Source: an uncultured Porphyromonadaceae bacterium (GTDB lineage: Bacteria; Bacteroidota; Bacteroidia; Bacteroidales; Muribaculaceae). From it: 64,000 bases of DNA. Below, one piece after another: positions 45,808 through 64,000 of the stretch. Under the pieces are notes generated by a model. The model saw only the letters and a program-made list of their open reading frames with translations. It did no database searches and was not told where the DNA came from. The number at the start of each line of letters is the position of its first letter. Positions within the stretch are counted from its first letter, which is position 1. Both the position numbers and the translations under genes were made by a program. The stretch spans positions 29,832 through 93,831 of the forward strand of contig URTA01000004.1 of assembly GCA_900550645.1 (NCBI GenBank). Direction: 5' to 3'.

Positions 45808-48800
45808 ATGAAAACAAGACTCACTACACTTGTCATGGCCGCCGCTATCACGGCTGCCGGGACGCTCGGGGCGACAGTGCGCTATGTCGCTGCTGACGGC
45901 ACGGGTGACGGCTCTTCGTGGGCAAATGCAATGAGCGATTTGCAAGCCGCGATAGACGCTTCCTCGTCCGGCGATGAAATCTGGGTCAAGCAAGGCACTT
46001 ACAAGCCCACAAGCCTGATCAAATCAAACAAGCCGACCTCCAAGGCTTTCATCCTCAAGGAGGGTGTGTCGCTCTACGGCGGCTTTGCCGGCACGGAGAC
46101 CTCGACCAGCGACCGTGTCCGCAACGGCGATAACGGCTTCAACCTGGCCAACGTGACGGAACTCAACGCTGACGACGACGTACCCGATGTATGGACGCGC
46201 ACCTTCGACGGCACTTCCTACCGCTGGACATGGGAGACTGAAAACGACCAGGTGACCGGCACCAGCGGCAACAGCAGCCACGTGCTCTACTGCTCCTCGA
46301 GCTTCACGGAGCAGACTGTCATTGACGGCTTCACCCTCCGGGGCGCAAACGCCAACGTGTACCAGGCCACGGCTTCCGGCGGCGCGGTATACGCGCTCGG
46401 CAACGTGACCCTGCGCAACTGTACGATGTACGAGAACTCGGCTTATTTCAAGGTCGAAGCCGATAGCAGCAACGCGCTTGGCGGCGCGGTATACCTCAAC
46501 GGCGGCACCATGGAGCAGTGCCTCGTGTCACGCGCTTTCTGCCATTCATCATACGGCAGCGGTGTTGGCGGCGCGGTATATGCCAAGGACGCGCAGATAA
46601 CCGGCTGCATGTTCGTTGACTGCGTAGGTCTCGACGGCGGCGGCGCAGTCTACATGATCCGCGGCTCACTGAGCGACTGCCGCTTCTCCAACTGCTACGG
46701 CAGCAGCGGCGGCGCAATATACAACAACGGCGGCACTATAGAGAACATAACTATCGAGGGTTGCCGCGCTATCAACGGCGGCGGCTTGTACAACGCTTAC
46801 GGCACTGTACGCAATGCGATCATATACAACTGCTATGCCGATGTCACTGAATATTCGTCCGGCGAAATGGGCGGCGGCGCGTTGTGCATGAACGGCGGCA
46901 ACGCTTCCGGCATCGTGGCTTACAACAACACCGCCTTTGCAGGCGGCGGCGTGTACATGAAGGCTGAGACTGCTCGCCTCGTCAACTCGACGGTACTCAA
47001 CAATGCTGTGCGCGAAGGGTCAACTGAGCCGGCCAACATACACATCTCCAACGCCGACAACGTGCTGAACACCATTTGGGACAGCAGCGTCAACCTCGCC
47101 GGCAATTTCGTCAACCCCACCTCATTCTCCGGCTATACCACCGACTGGGACATGACAAACAGTTTGGTCAATGCCAACTGGCAGCTCATCGAGGGCAGCC
47201 AATTCATTGACACCGGCACACCTGTCGAGGGCTTCACCGAGGGCACTGACGCGGCTGGCAACCCTCGCGTCACGGGCAGCTCTATCGACTGCGGCGCATA
47301 CGAGTACACCGACGGCACGCCCGTTGCCAACGCGACACTGCTGTTCGGCGGCGAGTTCAACACCATATACCTCTCTATAGGAACTGTCGGCGACACCCCT
47401 TACCAAGTGGACTGGGGTGACGGCAACTTGGTGACATACACCGAGGCATACACCCCGGAGAGCGACATGTTCAACCAGCGCGAGCTGAAGGGCAACTATG
47501 TCCGCATCTACGGTGATGTCCGCTTGCTGAAACTCATGGGCGGCAACAACTGCACAGGCTTCAGCGCGACGGGAAGCCCCAACCTCGAGATTCTCGCCTT
47601 GCCTTACAACTACATGGGCAATGTGGACGTGGCTTACCTGACGAAACTTCAGGAACTTGACCTCAGCGACAACGACCTGACCTCGCTCACCCTCCCGGCA
47701 ACAAACACCCTCGTCAAACTCGACATTGATGGCAACAAGCTGACAGAGCTGGACTTCTCTGGTGTCCCCAACCTGCAGGAACTTGATGCTGGCGACAATG
47801 GACTCACCTCATTTGACTTGACTGGCCTGTCCTGCCTGACGAGCCTCTCGCTGGATCAAAACAACCTGACGAGCATCGACCTGTCGCCGTGTCCCCTCCT
47901 TACCGAGCTTTCCATGGAGGAAAACGCGCTGACGAGCATCGACCTGTCCTCGCTCCCGCAGCTCAGCACTCTGGAACTCCGCAGCAACAAGCTGACAGAT
48001 ATTGACCTCTCCGGCAACCCGCAGCTGGCGTATCTGGATGTCAGCGAGAACAAACTCACCGAGCTTGACTTGAGCCATACGCCGATGCTCGAAACGGTGG
48101 CTGCAAACCTCAACGAGTTGCCCTCGATCGACTTGACTCCCTGCGCCAGCACTCTACAGAACCTCTCGCTGAGCGGCAACAAGCTGTCGAGCATCAATCT
48201 CGAGGGTCTGCCTGAACTGATGTACCTGGCTCTCGACTTCAACGCTTTCACGAGCATTGACCTCTCTGCTGTCCCCCAGCTGGAGTACATCGGCCTTGAC
48301 AACAATATGCTCACCTCTATCGACTTGAGCGCAAACACGCTGCTGAGCACCGTTTGCCTGACTGGCAACCAGCTGACGAGCCTCGACTTGAGCAACCATT
48401 CCCTGCTCAATGAGGTGTACATTGACTACAACCTCATGGAGGCTGACGCGATACGCTCCGTAATAAGCCAGCTCCCGGAAACGGAGGACTATGCTGTGCT
48501 CGACATCAGCTATATGCCCGGAACTTCAGGCGTTGACATAACCCCGGCAGAAGAGAAGGGCTGGGACGTTACGGCTGACTATGACGAGGAAACGGAAGGC
48601 TCCCTCGCCAGCCTGAACCTGCAGATGCGCACTATCGGCACGGCCACGGAGTACTGCGAATGTGTAATCACATTCACCGACGAAGCCCAGACCCAGTTCA
48701 GCATCAGCAACTTCCAGGGTTCAAGTACCTCACTGAAAGGCACTATCGATGCCGACAACAATGTCAAGATATATCCGCAGGTATTCTATGTGGGCAGCGA

Positions 48801-49500
48801 CATGTGCCTGATGGTCAACGGCGACAACACAACAGCCAACCCCATGGAGGCGCAGTCCACATACGTAAGCGGACACTATGACGGCGAGAAGCTCACGCTC
48901 CAGCCCTGGAACTTCATCAAGGTCTCCTACGACTTCCAGGAGAACCTCGGCACATATTACGACGTGAACCCCGTCTCCACATTCGTCAAGACCAACGCTG
49001 AGATGTCTTACAAGACAGACGGCCAGAGAATGGCAAACAGCCTCTACGCAACTGTAGAAGGCAACACTGTCACCCTCTACAACTGGGCAGGCCTCGGCAC
49101 AGTCCAGATGAAGCGCGACAACCTTAAGTGGTATATCGACGACACGACTCCGCTGTTGACAGAGGGCGAGAACGTATACTACGTGCAGTCACCTGACGGC
49201 GGCCCTGTATACATGGAGTACATGTTCAATCCCCGCCACATCTCCTTTGGCGAATGGTACGTAGTTACCGGCGGCGAGCTGATGATGGGCTTTGATTATG
49301 TCGACCTGCTCTTCCACTTTGACCTGCCGGTCAACACCGATGTTGAGGAGGTTACAGTTGCAGAATCCCCCGTCATCTCGACTGTATACTACAACGCAGC
49401 CGGCATGTCGTCGGCCCGTCCGTTCAACGGTTTCAACATCGTCGTGACCACACACGCCGACGGCAGCCAGCGAGCCAAGCGTGTTATGATAAGCAACTAA
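45808..49500 (+). CDS. T9SS cargo protein with N-terminal 'choice-of-anchor Q'-like beta-helix domain, ~13 leucine-rich repeats and a T9SS C-terminal sorting domain
   Basis: Signal peptide. RYVAADGTGDGSSWANAMSDLQAAIDASSSGDEIWVKQGTYKP matches the choice-of-anchor Q beta-helix start. Many GGAVY beta-helix rungs. 22-residue LRRs (LTSIDLS...). The C-terminus YYNAAGMSSARPFNGFNIVVTTHADGSQRAKRVMISN resembles a T9SS CTD. Confidence 0.7.
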   Translation: MKTRLTTLVMAAAITAAGTLGATVRYVAADGTGDGSSWANAMSDLQAAIDASSSGDEIWVKQGTYKPTSLIKSNKPTSKAFILKEGVSLYGGFAGTETSTSDRVRNGDNGFNLANVTELNADDDVPDVWTRTFDGTSYRWTWETENDQVTGTSGNSSHVLYCSSSFTEQTVIDGFTLRGANANVYQATASGGAVYALGNVTLRNCTMYENSAYFKVEADSSNALGGAVYLNGGTMEQCLVSRAFCHSSYGSGVGGAVYAKDAQITGCMFVDCVGLDGGGAVYMIRGSLSDCRFSNCYGSSGGAIYNNGGTIENITIEGCRAINGGGLYNAYGTVRNAIIYNCYADVTEYSSGEMGGGALCMNGGNASGIVAYNNTAFAGGGVYMKAETARLVNSTVLNNAVREGSTEPANIHISNADNVLNTIWDSSVNLAGNFVNPTSFSGYTTDWDMTNSLVNANWQLIEGSQFIDTGTPVEGFTEGTDAAGNPRVTGSSIDCGAYEYTDGTPVANATLLFGGEFNTIYLSIGTVGDTPYQVDWGDGNLVTYTEAYTPESDMFNQRELKGNYVRIYGDVRLLKLMGGNNCTGFSATGSPNLEILALPYNYMGNVDVAYLTKLQELDLSDNDLTSLTLPATNTLVKLDIDGNKLTELDFSGVPNLQELDAGDNGLTSFDLTGLSCLTSLSLDQNNLTSIDLSPCPLLTELSMEENALTSIDLSSLPQLSTLELRSNKLTDIDLSGNPQLAYLDVSENKLTELDLSHTPMLETVAANLNELPSIDLTPCASTLQNLSLSGNKLSSINLEGLPELMYLALDFNAFTSIDLSAVPQLEYIGLDNNMLTSIDLSANTLLSTVCLTGNQLTSLDLSNHSLLNEVYIDYNLMEADAIRSVISQLPETEDYAVLDISYMPGTSGVDITPAEEKGWDVTADYDEETEGSLASLNLQMRTIGTATEYCECVITFTDEAQTQFSISNFQGSSTSLKGTIDADNNVKIYPQVFYVGSDMCLMVNGDNTTANPMEAQSTYVSGHYDGEKLTLQPWNFIKVSYDFQENLGTYYDVNPVSTFVKTNAEMSYKTDGQRMANSLYATVEGNTVTLYNWAGLGTVQMKRDNLKWYIDDTTPLLTEGENVYYVQSPDGGPVYMEYMFNPRHISFGEWYVVTGGELMMGFDYVDLLFHFDLPVNTDVEEVTVAESPVISTVYYNAAGMSSARPFNGFNIVVTTHADGSQRAKRVMISN
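47650..48420 (+). repeat. Tandem ~66 bp coding repeats (LRR units) inside the T9SS cargo gene
   Basis: Periodic CTGAC(C/G)AGC(A/C)TCGAC(C/T)TG... units translating to LxxNxLTSIDLS. Confidence 0.6.
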
Positions 49501-59068: not shown

Positions 59069-60502
59069 CTATTCTTGAGTGTTGTCCTCCTCCTTAGGCT
59101 CTGTGAATACGTATGCGCCGAGGTCGGGCGTGCCTGTGGCGAGGCGGTCCATTCCGTACCAGTCAAAGCGGCACAGGTCGGTGACGAAGCTGCTGTTGCC
59201 CCGGCCGATAGCCGGCGATTCGGGGCGCAGCCTGTAGTCGAAGATGTAGTCCTCGCGCACGGTATAATATAGCGGGTCTTCGCCCCATACGCAGCTGAGG
59301 AAATGCGAGTCGTCCTCGCCCGAGGACTTGAACAGGACGTTGCGCATGTATACGTCGGAGTCGTCGAGCGTACCCTCGTTGATGTCGCCGCCCAGGCCGT
59401 AGATTATGCAGTTCTCGAATGAGGCGTTCATCAGCGGCACGTCAGGCATACCGTCGGCGGGAAGGCAGTGGTACAGGCTGAGAGCCGCGCTCGATATTGC
59501 GGAGAACAGGTAGTAGTTGGCAATGGTGCAGTGCACGAAGCGGTGGCTGCCGCCGGTGAGCGAGACGGCGGCGTTGGCAGCCTCGGAGAACACACACCCG
59601 TAAGCGTCGACGCGGGCGTGGCGCGAGGTCAGCGCGTTGTATTGTGAATTGTGCAGCCAGGAGTTGACCAGCAGCAGCTTCTGCCGTGACAGGTCTGCGC
59701 ATGAGTCGATGTCGAGGCCTACGCGGGAGGAGCGCATGTTGACGTATTCGAGGCGGTTGTCAAATGACTGTCGTGCTATGCGCACGCCGTGCCATTGCCC
59801 GGCCATGATGTCGTAGCTCACGTCTTTCAGCACGTTGTCGAGGCGGTCGCCGCGCATGTCTATCTTCTTCTCTTTCGTGCCCACTGCCTCGAGCGTGCCG
59901 TATACCACCAGCTTGGCGTTGTCGTGGAACAGCAGCCGTGCCCCGGGGTCTATGCGCAGCCGTGTGCCGGGGGCAACGACCAGCGAGTCGTAGATGACGT
60001 AAGGCTGCTCGTCGGTCATGGTCATGTCCCCCTCGAGCGTCACCGCTTTGAGGCGCGTCACGTTCTGTCCGTAAGCCTCGACGGGGACTTCCTGAAGCAC
60101 GCCGTTGGTGACAAACTGCAGCTGGTCCTCGATGAGCTGCGGCTCTGAGGTGGGCGACTTGGGCGGGTCGCACTCGATGAAGACGTAGATGCTGTCGCCG
60201 CCGCGTATCTCAACGTCATGGAAGTTTGAGCCTGTCTGTCCGTCCACATTGAGGCGGAAGCGCGTGTCTGGGTCTTTGAACCCGATTGCCGAGATGTTCA
60301 CGCCCTTCTTGGCGCGGTTGTAGACCAGCAGACGCGCCGTGGGCGTGCCGGTCTCGGTGATGACTGTGTCGAAACTCACCTTCTCCACCGAGAACGACAG
60401 CACGTCGTCCGGGGAAGTCGTTATGTCGTCGCTGATGCACCCCGCGAGGATTAAACCAAACACGGGGAGCAACATCAAAATCAAGTATCGCGTCTTAGTC
60501 AT
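59069..60502 (-). CDS. Hypothetical lipoprotein with right-handed beta-helix-like region
   Basis: Lipobox LAGC. Repetitive beta-strand-rich centre. No family recognised. Confidence 0.5.
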   Translation of the reverse strand: MTKTRYLILMLLPVFGLILAGCISDDITTSPDDVLSFSVEKVSFDTVITETGTPTARLLVYNRAKKGVNISAIGFKDPDTRFRLNVDGQTGSNFHDVEIRGGDSIYVFIECDPPKSPTSEPQLIEDQLQFVTNGVLQEVPVEAYGQNVTRLKAVTLEGDMTMTDEQPYVIYDSLVVAPGTRLRIDPGARLLFHDNAKLVVYGTLEAVGTKEKKIDMRGDRLDNVLKDVSYDIMAGQWHGVRIARQSFDNRLEYVNMRSSRVGLDIDSCADLSRQKLLLVNSWLHNSQYNALTSRHARVDAYGCVFSEAANAAVSLTGGSHRFVHCTIANYYLFSAISSAALSLYHCLPADGMPDVPLMNASFENCIIYGLGGDINEGTLDDSDVYMRNVLFKSSGEDDSHFLSCVWGEDPLYYTVREDYIFDYRLRPESPAIGRGNSSFVTDLCRFDWYGMDRLATGTPDLGAYVFTEPKEEDNTQE

Positions 60503-60557: not shown

Positions 60558-61721
60558 ATGAAATACATGATAATAGCCGGCGAAGCGTCGGGCGACCTCC
60601 ATGCCTCGGGCGTGATAGAGGCGATACGCCAGCGCGACCCGGAGGCCAAGTTCCGCTTCTTCGGCGGCGACCTGATGGCGCGGGCTGCGCGATGCAACCC
60701 GGTGCTGCACTATGAGGAGATGAACGTCATGGGCTTCAGCGAGGTGCTGCGGTCGCTGCCGCGCATCTTGCGCCACCTGCGCCTCGCCAAAGCCACCCTG
60801 CGCGAGTTCCGCCCAGACACCCTCATACTGGTGGATTACCCGGGCTTCAACCTCAAGATGGCTCGCTATGCCCACCGCCTCGGCATACGCACCGACTATT
60901 TCATCTCGCCGAAGGTGTGGGCGTGGAAGGAGTGGCGCGTCCGCGACATACGCCGATACGTCGATGCAATGTACAGCATTCTCCCCTTCGAGGTCGAGTT
61001 CTACGCCAAGCACGGCATAAAGGTGGAATATGTGGGCAACCCCACGGTGCGCGAAATGGAGAACGTGCTGGGGCATATACCACCCTTCAAGCATTTCTGC
61101 GAGCGGCAGGGGCTGACGGACACGCGCCCGATAATCGCGCTGCTGCCAGGCTCGCGCCGTGGCGAGATACGCAACAACCTGCCGCTGATGATTCAGGCCG
61201 CCAAGCGTTTTCCCGACTACCAGTATGTTGTCGCCGCTGCGCCGGCGATAGGGGAGCGGTTCTACCGCGAGACGGCGCAAGACCCCGGGCTGCCGATGGT
61301 CTTCGGCTCGTCGCAGGTGCTTGCCAAGTATTCCAAGGCAGCCCTTGTCACCTCCGGCACTGCCACCCTCGAGACCGCCCTCATGGGCACGCCACAGGTG
61401 GTATGCTACCGCGCCAACGGCAAGAAGCTGTCATACCGCATCATGGAGAAGCTGCTGAAGGTGAAATACGTGTCGCTGCCCAACCTGATAGTAGGCACCC
61501 GCGTAGTCCCCGAACTGCTGGTGCATGAGTGCACCGTGGCGTCGATAGCCCGCGAGCTGTCGCCGCTGCTGCACCACTCGCCCCAGCGCGAATGGCAGAT
61601 GAACGGCTACCGCTCCATGCGCCGCAAGCTCGGCACGTCTCTCGCCACCGACTACACCGCCGAGCTGATAGTCTCCGCTCTCCGCTCGCGCACTCCCGCC
61701 CCCGACTCACAACCCCAATAA
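60558..61721 (+). CDS. lpxB: Lipid-A-disaccharide synthase
   Basis: N-terminus MKYMIIAGEASGDLHAS typical of LpxB. GT-B fold. ATG at 60558. Confidence 0.85.
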   Translation: MKYMIIAGEASGDLHASGVIEAIRQRDPEAKFRFFGGDLMARAARCNPVLHYEEMNVMGFSEVLRSLPRILRHLRLAKATLREFRPDTLILVDYPGFNLKMARYAHRLGIRTDYFISPKVWAWKEWRVRDIRRYVDAMYSILPFEVEFYAKHGIKVEYVGNPTVREMENVLGHIPPFKHFCERQGLTDTRPIIALLPGSRRGEIRNNLPLMIQAAKRFPDYQYVVAAAPAIGERFYRETAQDPGLPMVFGSSQVLAKYSKAALVTSGTATLETALMGTPQVVCYRANGKKLSYRIMEKLLKVKYVSLPNLIVGTRVVPELLVHECTVASIARELSPLLHHSPQREWQMNGYRSMRRKLGTSLATDYTAELIVSALRSRTPAPDSQPQ

Positions 61722-61734
61722 GCGTCATACACGT

Positions 61735-62997
61735 ATGAAGATTGAGTATATTTGCATCGAAAATTTCAGAGGCATCCGACGGTTCGAGGTTGACAGGTTG
61801 TCTGCCCTGAACGTGATAGCCGGAGCAAACGGCGCAGGAAAAACATCAGTTCTCACTGCTGTCAAAATACTGCTGTCTTGGCTGATAGCGCGACTGCGCA
61901 ATCCTCGAGGACGCGGACTCGCCGTCTCGGACAGCGACATAACTCGCGGAGCGGACTTCTGCACGCTGCGGCTGCGGCTCGACAACGGCGTGGAGTGGCA
62001 GATATACAAGCAGCGTTCCTCCGTGCGCCGCGCCTCGTCGGCCGAGACGAGGCTGGCGGATATGACACAATATGCCAATATTGTTGCGGAACAAGTCGCT
62101 GCATCGCCTGAAACCGCCGACCTGATGCTGATAGACGCTTACGGAGTGAACCGTGTTGTGGACGAAACGCCGATGCGTGTGCGCAAGACTCACAAGCTGT
62201 CGCCGCTGGACGCACTTTCGGTGGAGATGTCTAACAGCGTGAATTTCCACGACTTCTTCACCTGGTACCGCGAAATGGAGGACATCGAGAATGAGCGGAT
62301 GCGCGAGACGGGTACGCTCGTTACGGATCGCCGCCTTGATGCTGTGCGCTGCACCATAACTGATTTCATGGACGGATACGGCGATTTCCGTGTGCAGCGC
62401 AGCCCCAAGGCTTTTGTCATATCCAAAGACGGGGTGAAATTCAATTTCAACGAGTTGTCTGACGGTGAGAAGTCTTATCTTGCGCTTGTGATGGACATTT
62501 CGCGCAAGCTCGCGATGACACACCCTGCAATGGACGATCCGCGCAAGGGCGAGGGCATAATTTTGATAGACGAGATTGACCTGCACCTGCACCCGGCATG
62601 GCAGCGGACTGTATTGGAAAAGATGCGCAAGGCGTTCCCGAATTGCCAGTTCTTGATAACCACACACTCCCCGCTTGTCGTTTCTGGCGTAAACATGATT
62701 GGTGGCGATATTTTGCTGGCTATCAAGGACGGAGATGTGCATGTCATTGAGGAAAACCAGTACGGACAGGAAACGGACATGGTGCTGTCTGACGTGTTTG
62801 GCATGGACAGCCTGCGCCCGCCGGTAGTGCAGCAGCATATCGACCGTGTGTGGGAGTTGCTGAAGGCCGGCGACTGCTCTTCCAGCGACTTTGCCTCGGC
62901 ATTTGGCTGGCTGCAGCAGCACATTGATGCTGCAGACCCGGTGTTCATGCAGGTGCGTATGCAGATGGCTCTGATGAAAAAGAAGGCTGGCAGATGA
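61735..62997 (+). CDS. Septu PtuA-like ABC/SMC-type ATPase (AAA_15/21-like)
   Basis: Walker A GANGAGKTS. Q-loop/signature-like LSDGEKS. Walker B ILIDEIDLHLHP. H-loop ITTHSP. Overlaps the downstream HNH gene by 4 nt. Confidence 0.65.
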   Translation: MKIEYICIENFRGIRRFEVDRLSALNVIAGANGAGKTSVLTAVKILLSWLIARLRNPRGRGLAVSDSDITRGADFCTLRLRLDNGVEWQIYKQRSSVRRASSAETRLADMTQYANIVAEQVAASPETADLMLIDAYGVNRVVDETPMRVRKTHKLSPLDALSVEMSNSVNFHDFFTWYREMEDIENERMRETGTLVTDRRLDAVRCTITDFMDGYGDFRVQRSPKAFVISKDGVKFNFNELSDGEKSYLALVMDISRKLAMTHPAMDDPRKGEGIILIDEIDLHLHPAWQRTVLEKMRKAFPNCQFLITTHSPLVVSGVNMIGGDILLAIKDGDVHVIEENQYGQETDMVLSDVFGMDSLRPPVVQQHIDRVWELLKAGDCSSSDFASAFGWLQQHIDAADPVFMQVRMQMALMKKKAGR

Positions 62998-63626
62998 GGC
63001 ATATCGAAAAGGGCGAGCCGCTGCCCGACTTTGTGCGGTTTGTTGAGAGGGGAAAGCCGCGCCGCTGGGAGGACATACATGACCAGCCCGAATTGTACCG
63101 CGCTTGCCGAGACCGTATTCTCGAGGAGCAAGGTATGCTTGGGGCGTACACCGAAAGGCCGCTGTCAAATTCCCAGTCGCTGCACATAGACCATTTTCGC
63201 AAGAAAGGCATGCCGTGGCAGCATGACATGACATTCGACTGGCGCAACCTCGTTGTTGAGGACAGGTCCAGCGATTTCGGGGCGTGCTACAAGGATAACA
63301 ATACGAGCAAGGTCTCTGATTATGATATGCTTATAAATCCGGTCGAGGAATACCCGGAGCGCATGATGACCTACCTCGCAAACGGCGAAATTACAGCTCG
63401 CGCTGATATGGACGAGCGCGACCGCCAACGGTCGGATTTTACCATATCCCGTTTCAACCTGAACCACGGCAAGCTGGTGAGGATGCGCTCCAGTGTTATT
63501 GAAGTGGTAGCTGCATGCACGCAGCTGACCGACGACGAGATACGCCATGCAATGTCGTTGTCTGGTTTTCCCAGCGTTGTTGAGTGGGCGTTGGATGCTC
63601 GGCGAAAGCTGAACGAACTCAAATGA
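62994..63626 (+). CDS. Septu PtuB-like HNH endonuclease (TIGR02646-like)
   Basis: HNH core SLHIDHFRKKG...WRNLV. 210 aa. Translationally coupled to the upstream ATPase. Confidence 0.6.
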   Translation: MRHIEKGEPLPDFVRFVERGKPRRWEDIHDQPELYRACRDRILEEQGMLGAYTERPLSNSQSLHIDHFRKKGMPWQHDMTFDWRNLVVEDRSSDFGACYKDNNTSKVSDYDMLINPVEEYPERMMTYLANGEITARADMDERDRQRSDFTISRFNLNHGKLVRMRSSVIEVVAACTQLTDDEIRHAMSLSGFPSVVEWALDARRKLNELK

Positions 63627-63734
63627 GGTGAAGTTGGCTGGTCAGGTGTTTCGATATTCGGAATTTTATATTAACTTTGTTTTTTGGAATGTTGCCCATT
63701 TGGGCGAGCATATCCGCGATAAATCTGTAATGCG

Positions 63735-64000
63735 ATGACAATCAATAGTATACAGGATGAAATAATCGAAGAGTTCGAGGATATAGTGGATTGGATGGAC
63801 CGCTATGCGTACATCATCGAGCTCGGAACGTCACTCCCGGCACTGCCCGAAGAGGAGAAAACGCCGCAGAACCTCATCGAAGGCTGCCAGAGCCGCGTGT
63901 GGATAACGGCAGACCTGGACAGCGAAGGCAACATTGTCTTCCGCGCCGACAGCGACGCGCTGATAGTCAAGGGTATCGTCGCGCTGCTGCTGCGTGTGGT
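63735..64000 (+). CDS. sufE: SufE-like cysteine desulfuration protein (3'-truncated by window end)
   Basis: DRYAYIIELG...NLIEGCQSRVW matches the SufE family signature around the conserved Cys. Confidence 0.65.
   Translation, partial: MTINSIQDEIIEEFEDIVDWMDRYAYIIELGTSLPALPEEEKTPQNLIEGCQSRVWITADLDSEGNIVFRADSDALIVKGIVALLLRV

What the first reader, a model, noticed from the sequence alone, without database searches (positions are those of the whole stretch)
61735..63626. Septu-like two-gene defense cassette (ATPase plus HNH nuclease) inserted between lpxB and sufE
A 420 aa ABC/SMC-type ATPase (Walker A, LSDGEK signature, Walker B, H-loop all visible) is translationally coupled by a 4 nt overlap to a 210 aa HNH protein (HIDH...N). 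That is the defining architecture of Septu (PtuA/PtuB). The pair sits in a housekeeping context (lpxB upstream, sufE downstream), as expected for a small defense insertion. The ATPase is shorter than many PtuA proteins, which suggests a compact variant.
Basis: partly seen in the sequence, partly recalled or inferred. Interest (0 to 1): 0.6.

Follow-up and report, generated by a model that had tools for sequence, protein, structure and literature searches.

The report
Septu anti-phage gene pair (ptuA–ptuB)
This is an ordinary, intact member of the known Septu anti-phage defence system (an ATPase plus an HNH nuclease), slotted between two housekeeping genes in a gut Muribaculaceae bacterium and missing from that spot in its closest sister species.

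Summary
Both proteins match PADLOC Septu models over their full length (PtuA E=5.5e-118, PtuB E=6.6e-46). PtuB passes the TIGR02646 cut-off. AlphaFold models of both proteins retrieve only solved PtuA or PtuB chains as significant matches.

No reverse transcriptase or retron RNA is nearby, and PtuA lacks the retron-specific N-terminal extension, so this is stand-alone (type I) Septu.

Two sister species have lpxB followed directly by sufE, so the ~1.9 kb cassette is accessory. Its GC3 is 0.66–0.68, against 0.82–0.83 for its neighbours. Both genes are under purifying selection (dN/dS 0.08 and 0.21). Relatives at ~60% identity lie in defence islands.

The "compact variant" claim fails: 420 aa is the normal length for this subfamily.

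Three things are mildly unusual:
- The PtuB clade lacks three of the four zinc-finger cysteines that are essential in Retron-Eco7 PtuB.
- The cassette has no promoter of its own, sitting 13 nt after lpxB.
- ptuB alleles are swapped within the species.

Verdict: a new member of a known kind, of low interest.

The parts
60558..61721 (+). lpxB (lipid-A-disaccharide synthase), the upstream housekeeping flank and the probable source of transcription for the cassette.
   Evidence: PF02684 on the identical gene in L081-L088. ATG at 60558 and TAA at 61719-61721. 99% amino-acid identity in L001/L002.
61722..61734 (+). 13-nt leader (GCGTCATACACGT) between the lpxB stop and the ptuA start. It is the left edge of the inserted segment and has no promoter or terminator.
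   Evidence: Homology to the empty sites ends at about 61722. The same leader is present in L089. No sigma-70-like site, terminator-like site or TAnnTTTG box lies here.
61735..62997 (+). ptuA: Septu ABC/SMC-type ATPase, 420 aa.
   Evidence: PADLOC PDLC00271 PtuA, E=5.5e-118, residues 1-416 on profile 1-416/421. Pfam AAA_21, AAA_15, SMC_N. PDB sequence hits to PtuA chains. AF2 pLDDT 88.3, and the top 50 Foldseek hits are all PtuA chains, TMq up to 0.82. dN/dS 0.081.
61822..61845 (+). PtuA Walker A (GANGAGKT, K36).
   Evidence: G30, G33, G35 and K36 are invariant in 20 homologues.
62455..62472 (+). PtuA ABC signature motif (LSDGEK).
   Evidence: S242, D243, G244 and E245 are invariant. It corresponds to Ec78 357-LSDGQR-362 (PMC12819146).
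62557..62574 (+). PtuA Walker B (IILIDE, D279/E280), followed by a D-loop.
   Evidence: D279 and E280 are invariant. By motif, E280 corresponds to Ec78 E396, whose E396Q mutant loses defence; I did not make a residue-level alignment.
62659..62670 (+). PtuA H-loop (TTHS, H311).
   Evidence: T310, H311 and S312 are invariant.
62994..63626 (+). ptuB: Septu HNH nuclease (TIGR02646 family), 210 aa. It has an N-terminal HNH domain and a C-terminal helical domain.
   Evidence: PADLOC PDLC00326 PtuB, E=6.6e-46, residues 1-200 on profile 1-196/197. TIGR02646 at 69.5 bits against a cut-off of 52.15. AF2 pLDDT 90.5, and the only significant Foldseek hits are PtuB chains (9nnb_J E=6.8e-11, TM 0.73; Septu 8eea_G E=1.2e-7, TM 0.71). 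dN/dS 0.21.
63183..63194 (+). PtuB catalytic HIDH (D66/H67 correspond to Ec78 E56/H57).
   Evidence: The HMMER alignment to 9vh1_F places H67 on H57. H57A and E56A abolish defence or nuclease activity. H64, I65, D66 and H67 are invariant.
63246..63248 (+). PtuB N85, the Asn of the H-N-H motif.
   Evidence: Invariant in 16 homologues and aligned to Ec78 N73. The equivalent N91 is required in Septu EcB88.
63627..63644 (+). 3' tail of the inserted segment (GGTGAAGTTGGCTGGTCA), the right junction.
   Evidence: Homology to the empty sites L001/L002 resumes at 63640-63645. The junction is shared with L089.
63672..63679 (+). Bacteroidetes-type -7 box (TAACTTTG) upstream of sufE. It belongs to the host flank, not to the cassette.
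   Evidence: Pattern match. It lies within a block that is nearly invariant in both filled and empty sites. That it acts as a promoter is inferred from the known Bacteroides consensus TAnnTTTG.
63735..64000 (+). sufE (5' part; the gene runs off the window), the downstream housekeeping flank.
   Evidence: PF02657 on the identical gene in L081-L088. MTINSIQDE... translation.

Best explanation
The two genes are a stand-alone (type I) Septu anti-phage system acquired horizontally by a gut Muribaculaceae lineage and kept as an accessory cassette between lpxB and sufE.

Likely mechanism, by homology to the E. coli systems that have been studied:
1. PtuA, an ABC/SMC-family ATPase, forms ATP-sandwich dimers that assemble into a higher oligomer.
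2. The C-terminal helices of a PtuA dimer (about aa 347-419) clamp the three-helix C-terminal domain of PtuB (about aa 141-209).
3. While ATP/ADP is bound, the complex is quiescent.
4. Infection releases or activates the PtuB HNH site (D66, H67, N85, with Mg2+ or Mn2+). The trigger is unknown and could be a phage protein, a fall in ATP, or both.
5. PtuB then cuts nucleic acid, either by nicking DNA or by cleaving host tRNA-Tyr in its variable loop. This stops growth of the infected cell and blocks phage production (abortive infection).

Shown here: family membership of both proteins, intact catalytic motifs, predicted folds, tight gene coupling, absence of a retron partner, accessory distribution, foreign base composition, purifying selection, and a defence-island context for relatives.

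Inferred: complex formation and its stoichiometry, ATP control, the trigger, the substrate, and protection against any phage. Expression by read-through from the lpxB promoter is also inferred, from the 13-nt gap with no promoter or terminator motif.
For: - PADLOC: PtuA PDLC00271 E=5.5e-118 and PtuB PDLC00326 E=6.6e-46, both end to end.
- TIGR02646 is above its curated cut-off.
- PDB sequence hits are to PtuA and PtuB of Septu and retron I-A.
- AF2 models (pLDDT 90.5 and 88.3) retrieve only PtuB or PtuA chains as significant matches.
- Walker A, signature, Walker B, H-loop and the H-N-H residues are invariant across the family. They correspond to residues whose mutation abolishes defence: Ec78 PtuA E396Q and PtuB H57A/E56A, and Septu EcB88 K43, D316, H75 and N91.
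- No RT: the neighbours are LpxB and SufE-MFS-LMWPc-TonB-RpsT. There is no Rfam hit within 18 kb.
- Empty sites exist in L001/L002.
- GC3 is 0.66-0.68 in the cassette against 0.82-0.83 in the neighbours.
- dN/dS is 0.08 for ptuA and 0.21 for ptuB.
- Relatives at about 60% identity always have an adjacent ptuB-sized partner gene (PADLOC-confirmed as PtuB in L094). They lie between a type IIG restriction-modification gene (E=0) and GmrSD-like or OLD/AriA-like genes.
- More distant relatives lie on Bacteroides and Phocaeicola plasmids beside TIR/SIR2 genes, and inside a type I R-M operon on an Enterobacter plasmid.
- Mechanism as reported in the literature: EcSeptu forms a 6:2 complex that cleaves DNA and is inhibited by ATP (as cited in PMC12640716). 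ATP/ADP inhibits Ec78 PtuAB nuclease, which cleaves plasmid DNA and tRNA-Tyr in vitro (PMC13376987). Septu EcB88 cleaves the tRNA-Tyr variable loop on T6 infection (PMC13096335).
Against: - No experiment exists on this protein pair or on any Bacteroidota Septu that I could find (one search returned nothing relevant).
- This PtuB lacks three of the four cysteines (Eco7 C43, C46, C78) of the zinc finger whose mutation abolishes Retron-Eco7 defence. Its nuclease domain is therefore stabilised differently, and its activity cannot be assumed to be identical.
- The closest solved relatives by sequence are retron-associated PtuAB, not E. coli Septu. Substrate and oligomeric state differ among the characterised PtuAB systems, so the target here is an open choice.
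- No promoter was found for the cassette.
Confidence: 0.85

Rival explanations
1. The pair is an orphaned effector module of a type I-A retron (Septu type II) that has lost, or is separated from, its reverse transcriptase and msr/msd RNA. It would need msDNA in trans to be held in check.
For: The closest solved structures by sequence and fold are retron Ec83/Ec78 PtuA and PtuB. The second-best PADLOC models are ATPase_I-A and HNH_I-A. The signature motif LSDGEK resembles Ec83 LSQGEK more than the Leu-containing EcSeptu motif.
Against: No RT gene lies within 8 kb on either side in any of the contigs carrying the cassette, nor beside relatives in five other contexts. Rfam finds nothing nearby. 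The retron equivalogs NF041760 and NF041761 score far below their cut-offs (281 against 500, and 89 against 150). PtuA residue 3 aligns to Ec83 residue 63, and the protein is about 120 aa shorter, so it lacks the N-terminal extension. The remaining length difference suggests the internal helical-flap insert that binds RT-msDNA is also missing, but I did not map that. Retron-free Ec78 PtuAB is toxic, yet this cassette is stably kept under purifying selection.
Confidence: 0.03
2. The pair is a housekeeping DNA-repair or chromosome-maintenance ATPase-nuclease (RecF/RecN/SMC/Rad50-like) that belongs with the neighbouring core genes.
For: Pfam SMC_N and AAA_23 hits, and weak NCBIfam hits to RecF, RecN and Rad50 through the N-terminal Walker A region. 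recO lies 4 kb upstream.
Against: RecF scores 47 bits against a cut-off of 172, and only residues 4-120 align, whereas the PtuA model scores 393 bits end to end. The pair is absent from sister species that have 99% identical LpxB and from 78 other Muribaculaceae lpxB loci. GC3 is atypical. Relatives sit in defence islands and on plasmids.
Confidence: 0.02
3. The cassette acts mainly as a selfish addiction or anti-plasmid module, restricting incoming DNA or stabilising itself, rather than as an anti-phage abortive-infection system.
For: Stand-alone Septu PtuAB is reported to nick plasmid DNA, and retron-free Ec78 PtuAB is toxic to its host. Relatives are carried on plasmids. The alleles have higher synonymous divergence than the flanks and ptuB is swapped within the species, which shows the locus moves by recombination.
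Against: Every experimentally tested Septu or retron-PtuAB system gives phage protection that depends on both enzymatic activities. This copy is chromosomal, with no mobility genes or flanking repeats. There is no separate antitoxin component.
Confidence: 0.08
4. The cassette is an inactive remnant that is no longer functional.
For: No promoter of its own was found. The zinc-finger cysteines are missing from PtuB.
Against: Both ORFs are intact, and identical PtuA is indexed in 152 blocks of the assembly collection, with the same gene order in all 22 contigs read. All catalytic residues are invariant. dN/dS is 0.08 and 0.21 over a dS of about 0.5. The Cys-less 'YTE' form is the norm: about 140 of the 182 PtuB relatives examined carry it, so it is a clade feature and not decay.
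Confidence: 0.02

Closest known systems
Septu type I (stand-alone PtuA/PtuB). It was first described in Bacillus (Doron et al. 2018, from my own knowledge). E. coli Septu has structures 8EE4/8EE7/8EEA, and Septu EcB88 is described in PMC13096335.
   Same: It is a two-gene operon of an ABC ATPase and a TIGR02646 HNH nuclease with no RT. It gives full-length PADLOC PtuA/PtuB hits. The folds match 8eea chains (TM 0.71-0.74). The Walker A/B and H-N-H residues needed for defence are present. It has an accessory, defence-island-type distribution.
   Different: Structure-based alignments show only about 20-24% identity to the E. coli Septu proteins. PtuA is 45 aa shorter than 8ee4. The signature motif has Glu (LSDGEK) where EcSeptu is reported to have Leu and to lack ATPase activity. 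The host is Bacteroidota. The cassette has no promoter of its own and sits 13 nt behind an essential gene. I could not determine whether E. coli Septu PtuB has the zinc finger.
Retron type I-A effectors (Retron-Eco7/Ec78 and Retron-Eco4/Ec83 PtuAB, also called 'Septu type II').
   Same: These are the closest solved homologues by sequence (PtuA E=1.4e-43 to Ec83; PtuB E=7.9e-10 to Ec78) and by fold. The catalytic D/E-H, the Asn, the signature motif and Walker B are the same. The PtuA C-terminal extension and PtuB C-terminal helical domain are the same.
   Different: There is no RT or msr/msd. PtuA lacks the N-terminal extension and is about 120 aa shorter overall. PtuB lacks three of the four Zn-finger cysteines (C43→G50, C46→T53, C78 has no counterpart). 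The NCBIfam equivalog cut-offs are not reached.
PARIS (AriA/AriB) and Gabija/OLD-family ATPase-nuclease defence pairs.
   Same: An ABC/OLD-type ATPase is paired with a nuclease effector. There is a weak AriA hit (E=2.3e-27) and PDB hits to AriA and OLD. The logic of an ATPase scaffold holding a nuclease in check is similar.
   Different: The nuclease partner here is HNH, not TOPRIM. The PtuA models score about 300 bits higher than AriA.

Membership tests
Septu type I (PtuA + PtuB) | PtuA: an ABC/SMC-type ATPase that matches PtuA profiles over its full length. | tested here: met
   PDLC00271 E=5.5e-118, residues 1-416 on profile 1-416/421. Foldseek top 50 are all PtuA chains.
Septu type I (PtuA + PtuB) | Intact Walker A, signature, Walker B and H-loop in PtuA (Walker A/B are required for defence in Septu EcB88). 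| tested here: met
   GANGAGKT 30-37, LSDGEK 241-246, IILIDE 275-280, TTHS 309-312. All are invariant in 20 homologues. The requirement is reported in PMC13096335.
Septu type I (PtuA + PtuB) | PtuB: an HNH nuclease of the TIGR02646 family. | tested here: met
   TIGR02646 at 69.5 bits against a cut-off of 52.15. PDLC00326 E=6.6e-46. The AF2 model matches only PtuB chains, TM 0.68-0.75. Pfam itself has no hit.
Septu type I (PtuA + PtuB) | Catalytic His and Asn of the H-N-H motif are present. | tested here: met
   D66/H67 align to Ec78 E56/H57, and N85 to N73. They are invariant in the family.
Septu type I (PtuA + PtuB) | ptuA and ptuB are adjacent, co-oriented and form one operon. | tested here: met
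   ATGA overlap. Adjacency, or outright fusion, is conserved in six other contexts.
Septu type I (PtuA + PtuB) | No associated reverse transcriptase or msDNA-coding RNA (this separates type I from retron I-A). | tested here: met
   The neighbours are LpxB and SufE, and no RT lies within ±8 kb. There are no Rfam hits near the locus (Rfam's coverage of retron RNAs is limited).
Septu type I (PtuA + PtuB) | PtuA-PtuB complex formed through the PtuA C-terminal helices and the PtuB C-terminal helical domain; ATP-inhibited nuclease. | not testable with these tools
   Both C-terminal helical regions are predicted (H347-419 in PtuA; H141-209 in PtuB) and align to solved chains. No multimer prediction or biochemistry is available.
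Septu type I (PtuA + PtuB) | Confers phage resistance. | not testable with these tools
   Only indirect support: accessory distribution, a defence-island context for relatives, and purifying selection.
Retron type I-A (Septu type II) | An adjacent retron RT and msr/msd ncRNA. | tested here: not met
Retron type I-A (Septu type II) | PtuA carries the N-terminal extension and the helical flap (α1-3, α10-11) that bind RT-msDNA. | tested here: not met
   Query residue 3 aligns to Ec83 residue 63, so the N-terminal extension is absent. The protein is 420 aa against 542-552 aa, which suggests the flap insert is also missing, but I did not map it residue by residue. The features are defined in PMC12819146 and PMC13376987.
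Retron type I-A (Septu type II) | NCBIfam equivalogs NF041760 (PtuA) and NF041761 (PtuB) reached. | tested here: not met
   281.5 against a cut-off of 500, and 89.2 against 150.
Retron type I-A (Septu type II) | PtuB CCCC zinc finger (Eco7 C43, C46, C78, C90). | tested here: not met
   G50, T53, no counterpart, and C98 respectively.
PARIS / Gabija / OLD ATPase-TOPRIM systems | A TOPRIM nuclease domain or partner. | tested here: not met
   The partner is HNH. AriA scores only E=2.3e-27, against PtuA at 5.5e-118.
RecF/RecN/SMC housekeeping ATPases | Reaches the equivalog cut-off and has a core, syntenic distribution. | tested here: not met
   recF scores 47 bits against 172, and recN 24 against 408. 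The pair is absent from L001/L002 and from 78 other lpxB loci.

The most novel reading that the evidence does not exclude
This cassette represents a large Bacteroidota-centred PtuB clade. About 140 of the 182 PtuB relatives examined carry an invariant x-x-Y-T-E motif instead of C-x-Y-C-E, and so have dispensed with the CCCC zinc finger that is essential in Retron-Eco7 PtuB. The clade is paired with a short PtuA whose signature motif (LSDGEK) looks hydrolysis-competent. Such a clade could differ from E. coli Septu in nuclease-domain stabilisation, ATP use and nucleic-acid target. In addition, this cassette has no promoter and may be wired into the lpxB transcript, and ptuB alleles are exchanged within the species independently of ptuA. 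That would suggest PtuB, not PtuA, carries the specificity that is under arms-race pressure.
Probability: 0.2. Interest if true: 0.4.

Novelty: new member of a known kind. Interest (0 to 1): 0.2.

Why it matters
It adds little conceptually, because standard defence-system profiles (PADLOC, TIGR02646) recognise both genes end to end. Its value is as a clean natural example with three useful properties:
- It is a minimal 1.9 kb Septu unit with exactly mapped filled and empty sites in near-identical gut Muribaculaceae lineages. That makes it suitable for studying strain-level phage resistance in an abundant but hard-to-culture gut family.
- It is a zinc-finger-less PtuB, which could show what the zinc finger contributes in the E. 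coli retron systems.
- It shows within-species exchange of the nuclease allele alone.

Tried and rejected
- Retron hypothesis. I checked gene content ±8 kb in 8 contigs, Rfam over the whole window and the NCBIfam retron equivalogs. It was rejected.
- Mobile-element signatures. I looked for direct or inverted repeats at the junctions and found only short chance matches. No integrase or transposase is adjacent.
- Promoter and terminator scan. There are no + strand sites around the cassette. The scan uses sigma-70 consensus, which does not suit Bacteroidota, so I added a TAnnTTTG search. That found a box only before sufE, plus two inside coding sequence.
- Synteny beyond the closest relatives. 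In L003-L080, lpxB is not followed by sufE, so only L001, L002 and L089 are informative. I listed the ORFs downstream of lpxB in L003 and L004 but did not pursue them.
- I tried to read Li et al. 2024 (PMC12318543) and Wang et al. 2025 (PMC12240667) for the stand-alone Septu and Ec83 mechanisms. Neither is held, so those facts are cited second-hand from PMC12640716, PMC12819146 and PMC13376987.
- I tried to see the residue-level alignment to E. coli Septu PtuB (8EE7 chain C), to learn whether it has the zinc finger. It never ranked among the alignments shown, so this is unresolved.
- Literature search for Septu in Muribaculaceae returned only irrelevant word-start matches.
- The cluster look-up gave no source annotation names.
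- The 'compact variant' idea was rejected on length statistics.
Full report
**1. Observation**

The ORF scan lists 61735..62997 (+, 420 aa) and 62994..63626 (+, 210 aa). The sequence shows ATGA at 62994-62997, where the ptuB start overlaps the ptuA stop.

- PtuA: Walker A GANGAGKT (aa 30-37), signature LSDGEK (241-246), Walker B IILIDE (275-280), H-loop TTHS (309-312).
- PtuB: HIDH (64-67), W-R-N85, FNLN (154-157).

The upstream gene is lpxB (PF02684; ATG 60558, stop 61721). The downstream gene is sufE (PF02657; starts 63735 and runs off the window).

**2. Identity of the two proteins**

Sequence profiles:
- Against PADLOC, PtuA's best hit is a Septu PtuA model, PDLC00271, at E=5.5e-118 and covering 1-416 of 421 positions.
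- PtuB's best hit is a Septu PtuB model, PDLC00326, at E=6.6e-46 and covering 1-196 of 197 positions.
- Pfam sees AAA_21, AAA_15, SMC_N and AAA_23 in PtuA and nothing in PtuB.

Because PtuB has no Pfam hit, I predicted both structures:
- PtuB: pLDDT 90.5, pTM 0.86. Foldseek against the PDB gives only PtuB chains as significant matches (9nnb_J E=6.8e-11, TM 0.73; E. coli Septu 8eea_G E=1.2e-7, TM 0.71).
- PtuA: pLDDT 88.3. Its top 50 hits are all PtuA chains, with TMq up to 0.82.

RecF scores 47 bits against a cut-off of 172 and RecN 24 against 408, and the fold is HNH.

**3. Stand-alone Septu, not a retron**

The second-best PADLOC models are the retron type I-A effectors, and the closest solved structures by sequence are Ec83/Ec78 PtuA and PtuB. 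I therefore tested the retron alternative, and four results argue against it:
- In 8 contigs carrying the identical PtuA, the gene order is always rpoN, recO, pepC, an unknown gene, lpxB, ptuA, ptuB, sufE, an MFS transporter, LMWPc, TonB_C, rpsT. No RT is present.
- Rfam finds only four distant tRNAs in the window.
- The retron equivalogs NF041760 and NF041761 are far below their cut-offs.
- PtuA residue 3 aligns to Ec83 residue 63, and the protein is about 120 aa shorter than the retron PtuAs. It therefore lacks the N-terminal extension. The rest of the length difference suggests the internal helical flap is also missing, but I did not map that. The structural papers identify these two elements as the retron-binding additions (PMC12819146 and PMC13376987).

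**4. Catalytic integrity and selection**

Alignment of 16 PtuB homologues (34-94% identity to the window protein) leaves H64, I65, D66, H67, N85, K100, D101, F154, N155 and L156 invariant. Using the HMMER alignment to 9vh1_F, H67 falls on Ec78 H57 and D66 on E56. The H57A and E56A mutants lose defence or nuclease activity. My residue count reproduces the published numbering of C43, C46, C78 and C90, which validates the mapping.

Alignment of 20 PtuA homologues (39-91% identity) leaves the Walker A, signature, Walker B and H-loop residues invariant.

Between the window and the sister lineage L089:

| Gene | dN/dS | dS |
|---|---|---|
| ptuA | 0.081 | 0.55 |
| ptuB | 0.206 | 0.47 |
| lpxB | 0.024 | 0.19 |

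. Both genes are therefore maintained by selection.

**5. Insertion**

I searched one genome per species with LpxB and obtained 80 Muribaculaceae loci. The two closest, L001 and L002, have 99% LpxB amino-acid identity and about 93% nucleotide identity in the flanks. In both, lpxB is followed by sufE after about 130 bp, with no ptuAB.

Nucleotide homology to the window stops at 61722, one base after the lpxB stop, and resumes at 63640-63645. About 1.92 kb therefore replaces 30-40 nt of spacer.

A further lineage, L089, carries a 91%-identical PtuA in the same slot with identical junctions: a 13-nt leader GCGTCATACA[C/T]GT and a tail GGTGAAGTTGGC. This points to a single insertion event.

Flank identities give the tree (window, L081), (L089, (L001, L002)). 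There are two readings:
- The cassette is ancestral and was lost in the L001/L002 branch.
- It spread between lineages by homologous recombination through the flanks.

The cassette's synonymous divergence is about 2.5-3 times that of lpxB, which favours allele exchange.

Other observations:
- Cassette GC3 is 0.66-0.68, against 0.82-0.83 in the neighbours.
- No repeats, integrase or transposase flank it.
- More distant Muribaculaceae do not have sufE after lpxB and are uninformative.

**6. Context of relatives**

- PtuA homologues at about 60% identity (P0005, P0035) each have an adjacent 211-215 aa partner gene, which PADLOC confirms as PtuB in L094. They lie between an SNF2 helicase plus a 1650-aa type IIG restriction-methyltransferase (PADLOC E=0) and either two GmrSD-like genes plus Fic or an OLD/AriA-like ATPase.
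- At about 36% identity, the pair is on Bacteroides and Phocaeicola plasmids. In Phocaeicola it is fused into one 616-aa protein beside TIR-SIR2-TIR and RloB genes.
- At about 31% identity, it is nested between hsdS and hsdR on Enterobacter plasmids.

These are typical defence-island settings.

**7. 'Compact variant'**

This claim is not supported. The best PADLOC model has 421 positions, the other PtuA models listed are mostly 400-455 positions, and the complete homologues among the 120 closest are almost all 411-451 aa. The protein is shorter only than E. coli Septu PtuA (465 aa) and the retron PtuAs (542-552 aa).

**8. Mechanism**

What is reported in the literature:
- E. coli Septu forms a PtuA6:PtuB2 complex that cleaves DNA on activation and is inhibited by ATP (Li et al. 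2024, as cited in PMC12640716 and PMC12819146).
- Ec78 PtuAB nicks plasmid DNA and degrades tRNA-Tyr in vitro with Mg2+ or Mn2+, and is inhibited by ATP/ADP (PMC13376987).
- Septu EcB88 cleaves the tRNA-Tyr variable loop on T6 infection and needs Walker A/B and H-N-H residues (PMC13096335).

By homology, I propose that PtuA oligomers hold PtuB through their C-terminal helices in an ATP-bound quiescent state. Infection then activates the HNH site (D66/H67/N85) to cut DNA or tRNA-Tyr, which arrests the infected cell. Everything beyond family membership, motif integrity and fold is inference for this locus.

Expression is probably by read-through from lpxB. Only 13 nt separate the two genes, and they contain no promoter or terminator motif. 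The Bacteroidetes-type -7 box at 63672 lies downstream of the cassette and is conserved in the empty sites, so it serves sufE.

**9. What is mildly unusual**

(a) Zinc finger. Retron-Eco7 PtuB has a zinc finger (C43, C46, C78, C90), and mutating all four cysteines abolishes defence (PMC12673091). Here the equivalent positions are G50, T53, no counterpart, and C98. T53 is invariant in the subfamily. Of the 182 PtuB relatives examined, about 140 carry x-x-Y-T-E and only 8 carry C-x-Y-C-E. This is therefore a large zinc-finger-less clade, not a defect of this copy. The only paper in the library that mentions a PtuB zinc finger is PMC12673091. I could not establish whether E. coli Septu PtuB has it.

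(b) Signature motif. It has Glu (LSDGEK), as in Ec83. E. coli Septu is reported to have Leu there and to lack ATPase activity.

(c) ptuB allele swap. Within the species, L081 has a ptuA that is 100% identical at the nucleotide level, while its ptuB is only 92% identical (dS 0.24) and 3 codons shorter. sufE is again 100% identical. That is a recombinational swap of the nuclease allele alone.

**10. Verdict**

The locus is a new member of a known kind (Septu type I) that standard tools recognise automatically, so interest is low. The most novel reading the evidence leaves open concerns the zinc-finger-less PtuB clade and its possibly different biochemistry.

Noticed in passing
window 63045-63626 (ptuB), compared with L081 9260-9883: Within the same species, L081 has a ptuA that is 100% identical at the nucleotide level, but its ptuB is only 92% identical (dS 0.24) and 3 codons shorter. 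sufE is 100% identical again. This is a recombinational replacement of the nuclease allele alone. At least five PtuB variants (81-100% identity) exist in this lineage, against PtuA variants at only 91-100%.
   Followed up: partly
window 63141-63161 and 63258-63287 (PtuB residues 50-56 and 89-98): This PtuB clade lacks three of the four zinc-finger cysteines that are essential in Retron-Eco7 PtuB (C43→G50, C46→T53, C78 has no counterpart, C90→C98). About 140 of 182 relatives have x-x-Y-T-E, and only 8 have C-x-Y-C-E.
   Followed up: partly
window 61735-63626 compared with L089 6001-7892: Synonymous divergence of the cassette (dS 0.47-0.55) is about 2.5-3 times that of the adjacent lpxB (0.19), although the junctions are identical. 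The cassette alleles are older than, or have been exchanged independently of, the host flanks.
   Followed up: partly
L098 5001-6851 (Phocaeicola vulgatus plasmid NZ_CP096966): PtuA and PtuB are fused into a single 616-aa ORF (36% identity to the window PtuA, with a 'CGYTE...HIDH' nuclease part). It lies directly downstream of RloB and TIR-SIR2-TIR genes and is annotated as 'retron system putative HNH endonuclease', although no RT is adjacent.
   Followed up: partly
L100 2501-4499 (Enterobacter plasmid NZ_CP072963): A ptuA-ptuB pair is nested between hsdS and hsdR inside a type I restriction-modification operon. Its PtuB keeps the canonical C-A-Y-C motif.
   Followed up: no
L094 1-12406 and L092 1-9860: PtuAB relatives at about 60% identity sit between an SNF2 helicase plus a 1650-aa type IIG REase-MTase (PADLOC PDLC03614, E=0) and either two GmrSD/HEC-06-like genes plus Fic or a 621-aa OLD/AriA-like ATPase followed by a gene of more than 2300 aa with no Pfam hit.
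   Followed up: partly
window 59069-60502 (- strand): This is a conserved protein (ORF 477 aa; called as 468 aa) with a signal-peptide-like N-terminus and no Pfam hit. It is divergently transcribed from lpxB and is syntenic with lpxB in nearly all 80 Muribaculaceae loci (53-95% identity).
   Followed up: no
window 61846-63234 (- strand): A 462-aa antisense ORF overlaps almost all of ptuA and part of ptuB. It is most likely a by-product of the G+C-rich coding strand opposite, and no gene was called there in any public contig.
   Followed up: no
window 45808-49500 (+): A 1230-aa protein with leucine-rich repeats (LRR_4/LRR_8) lies upstream of metG. The rest of the surroundings are housekeeping genes: metG, TPR proteins, rpoN, recO, pepC.
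   Followed up: no
window 60845-61244 (inside lpxB), compared with L081: There is a patch of 31 mismatches in 400 bp within an otherwise 99-100% identical region between two strains of the same species. This indicates a second recombination tract, just upstream of the cassette.
   Followed up: no
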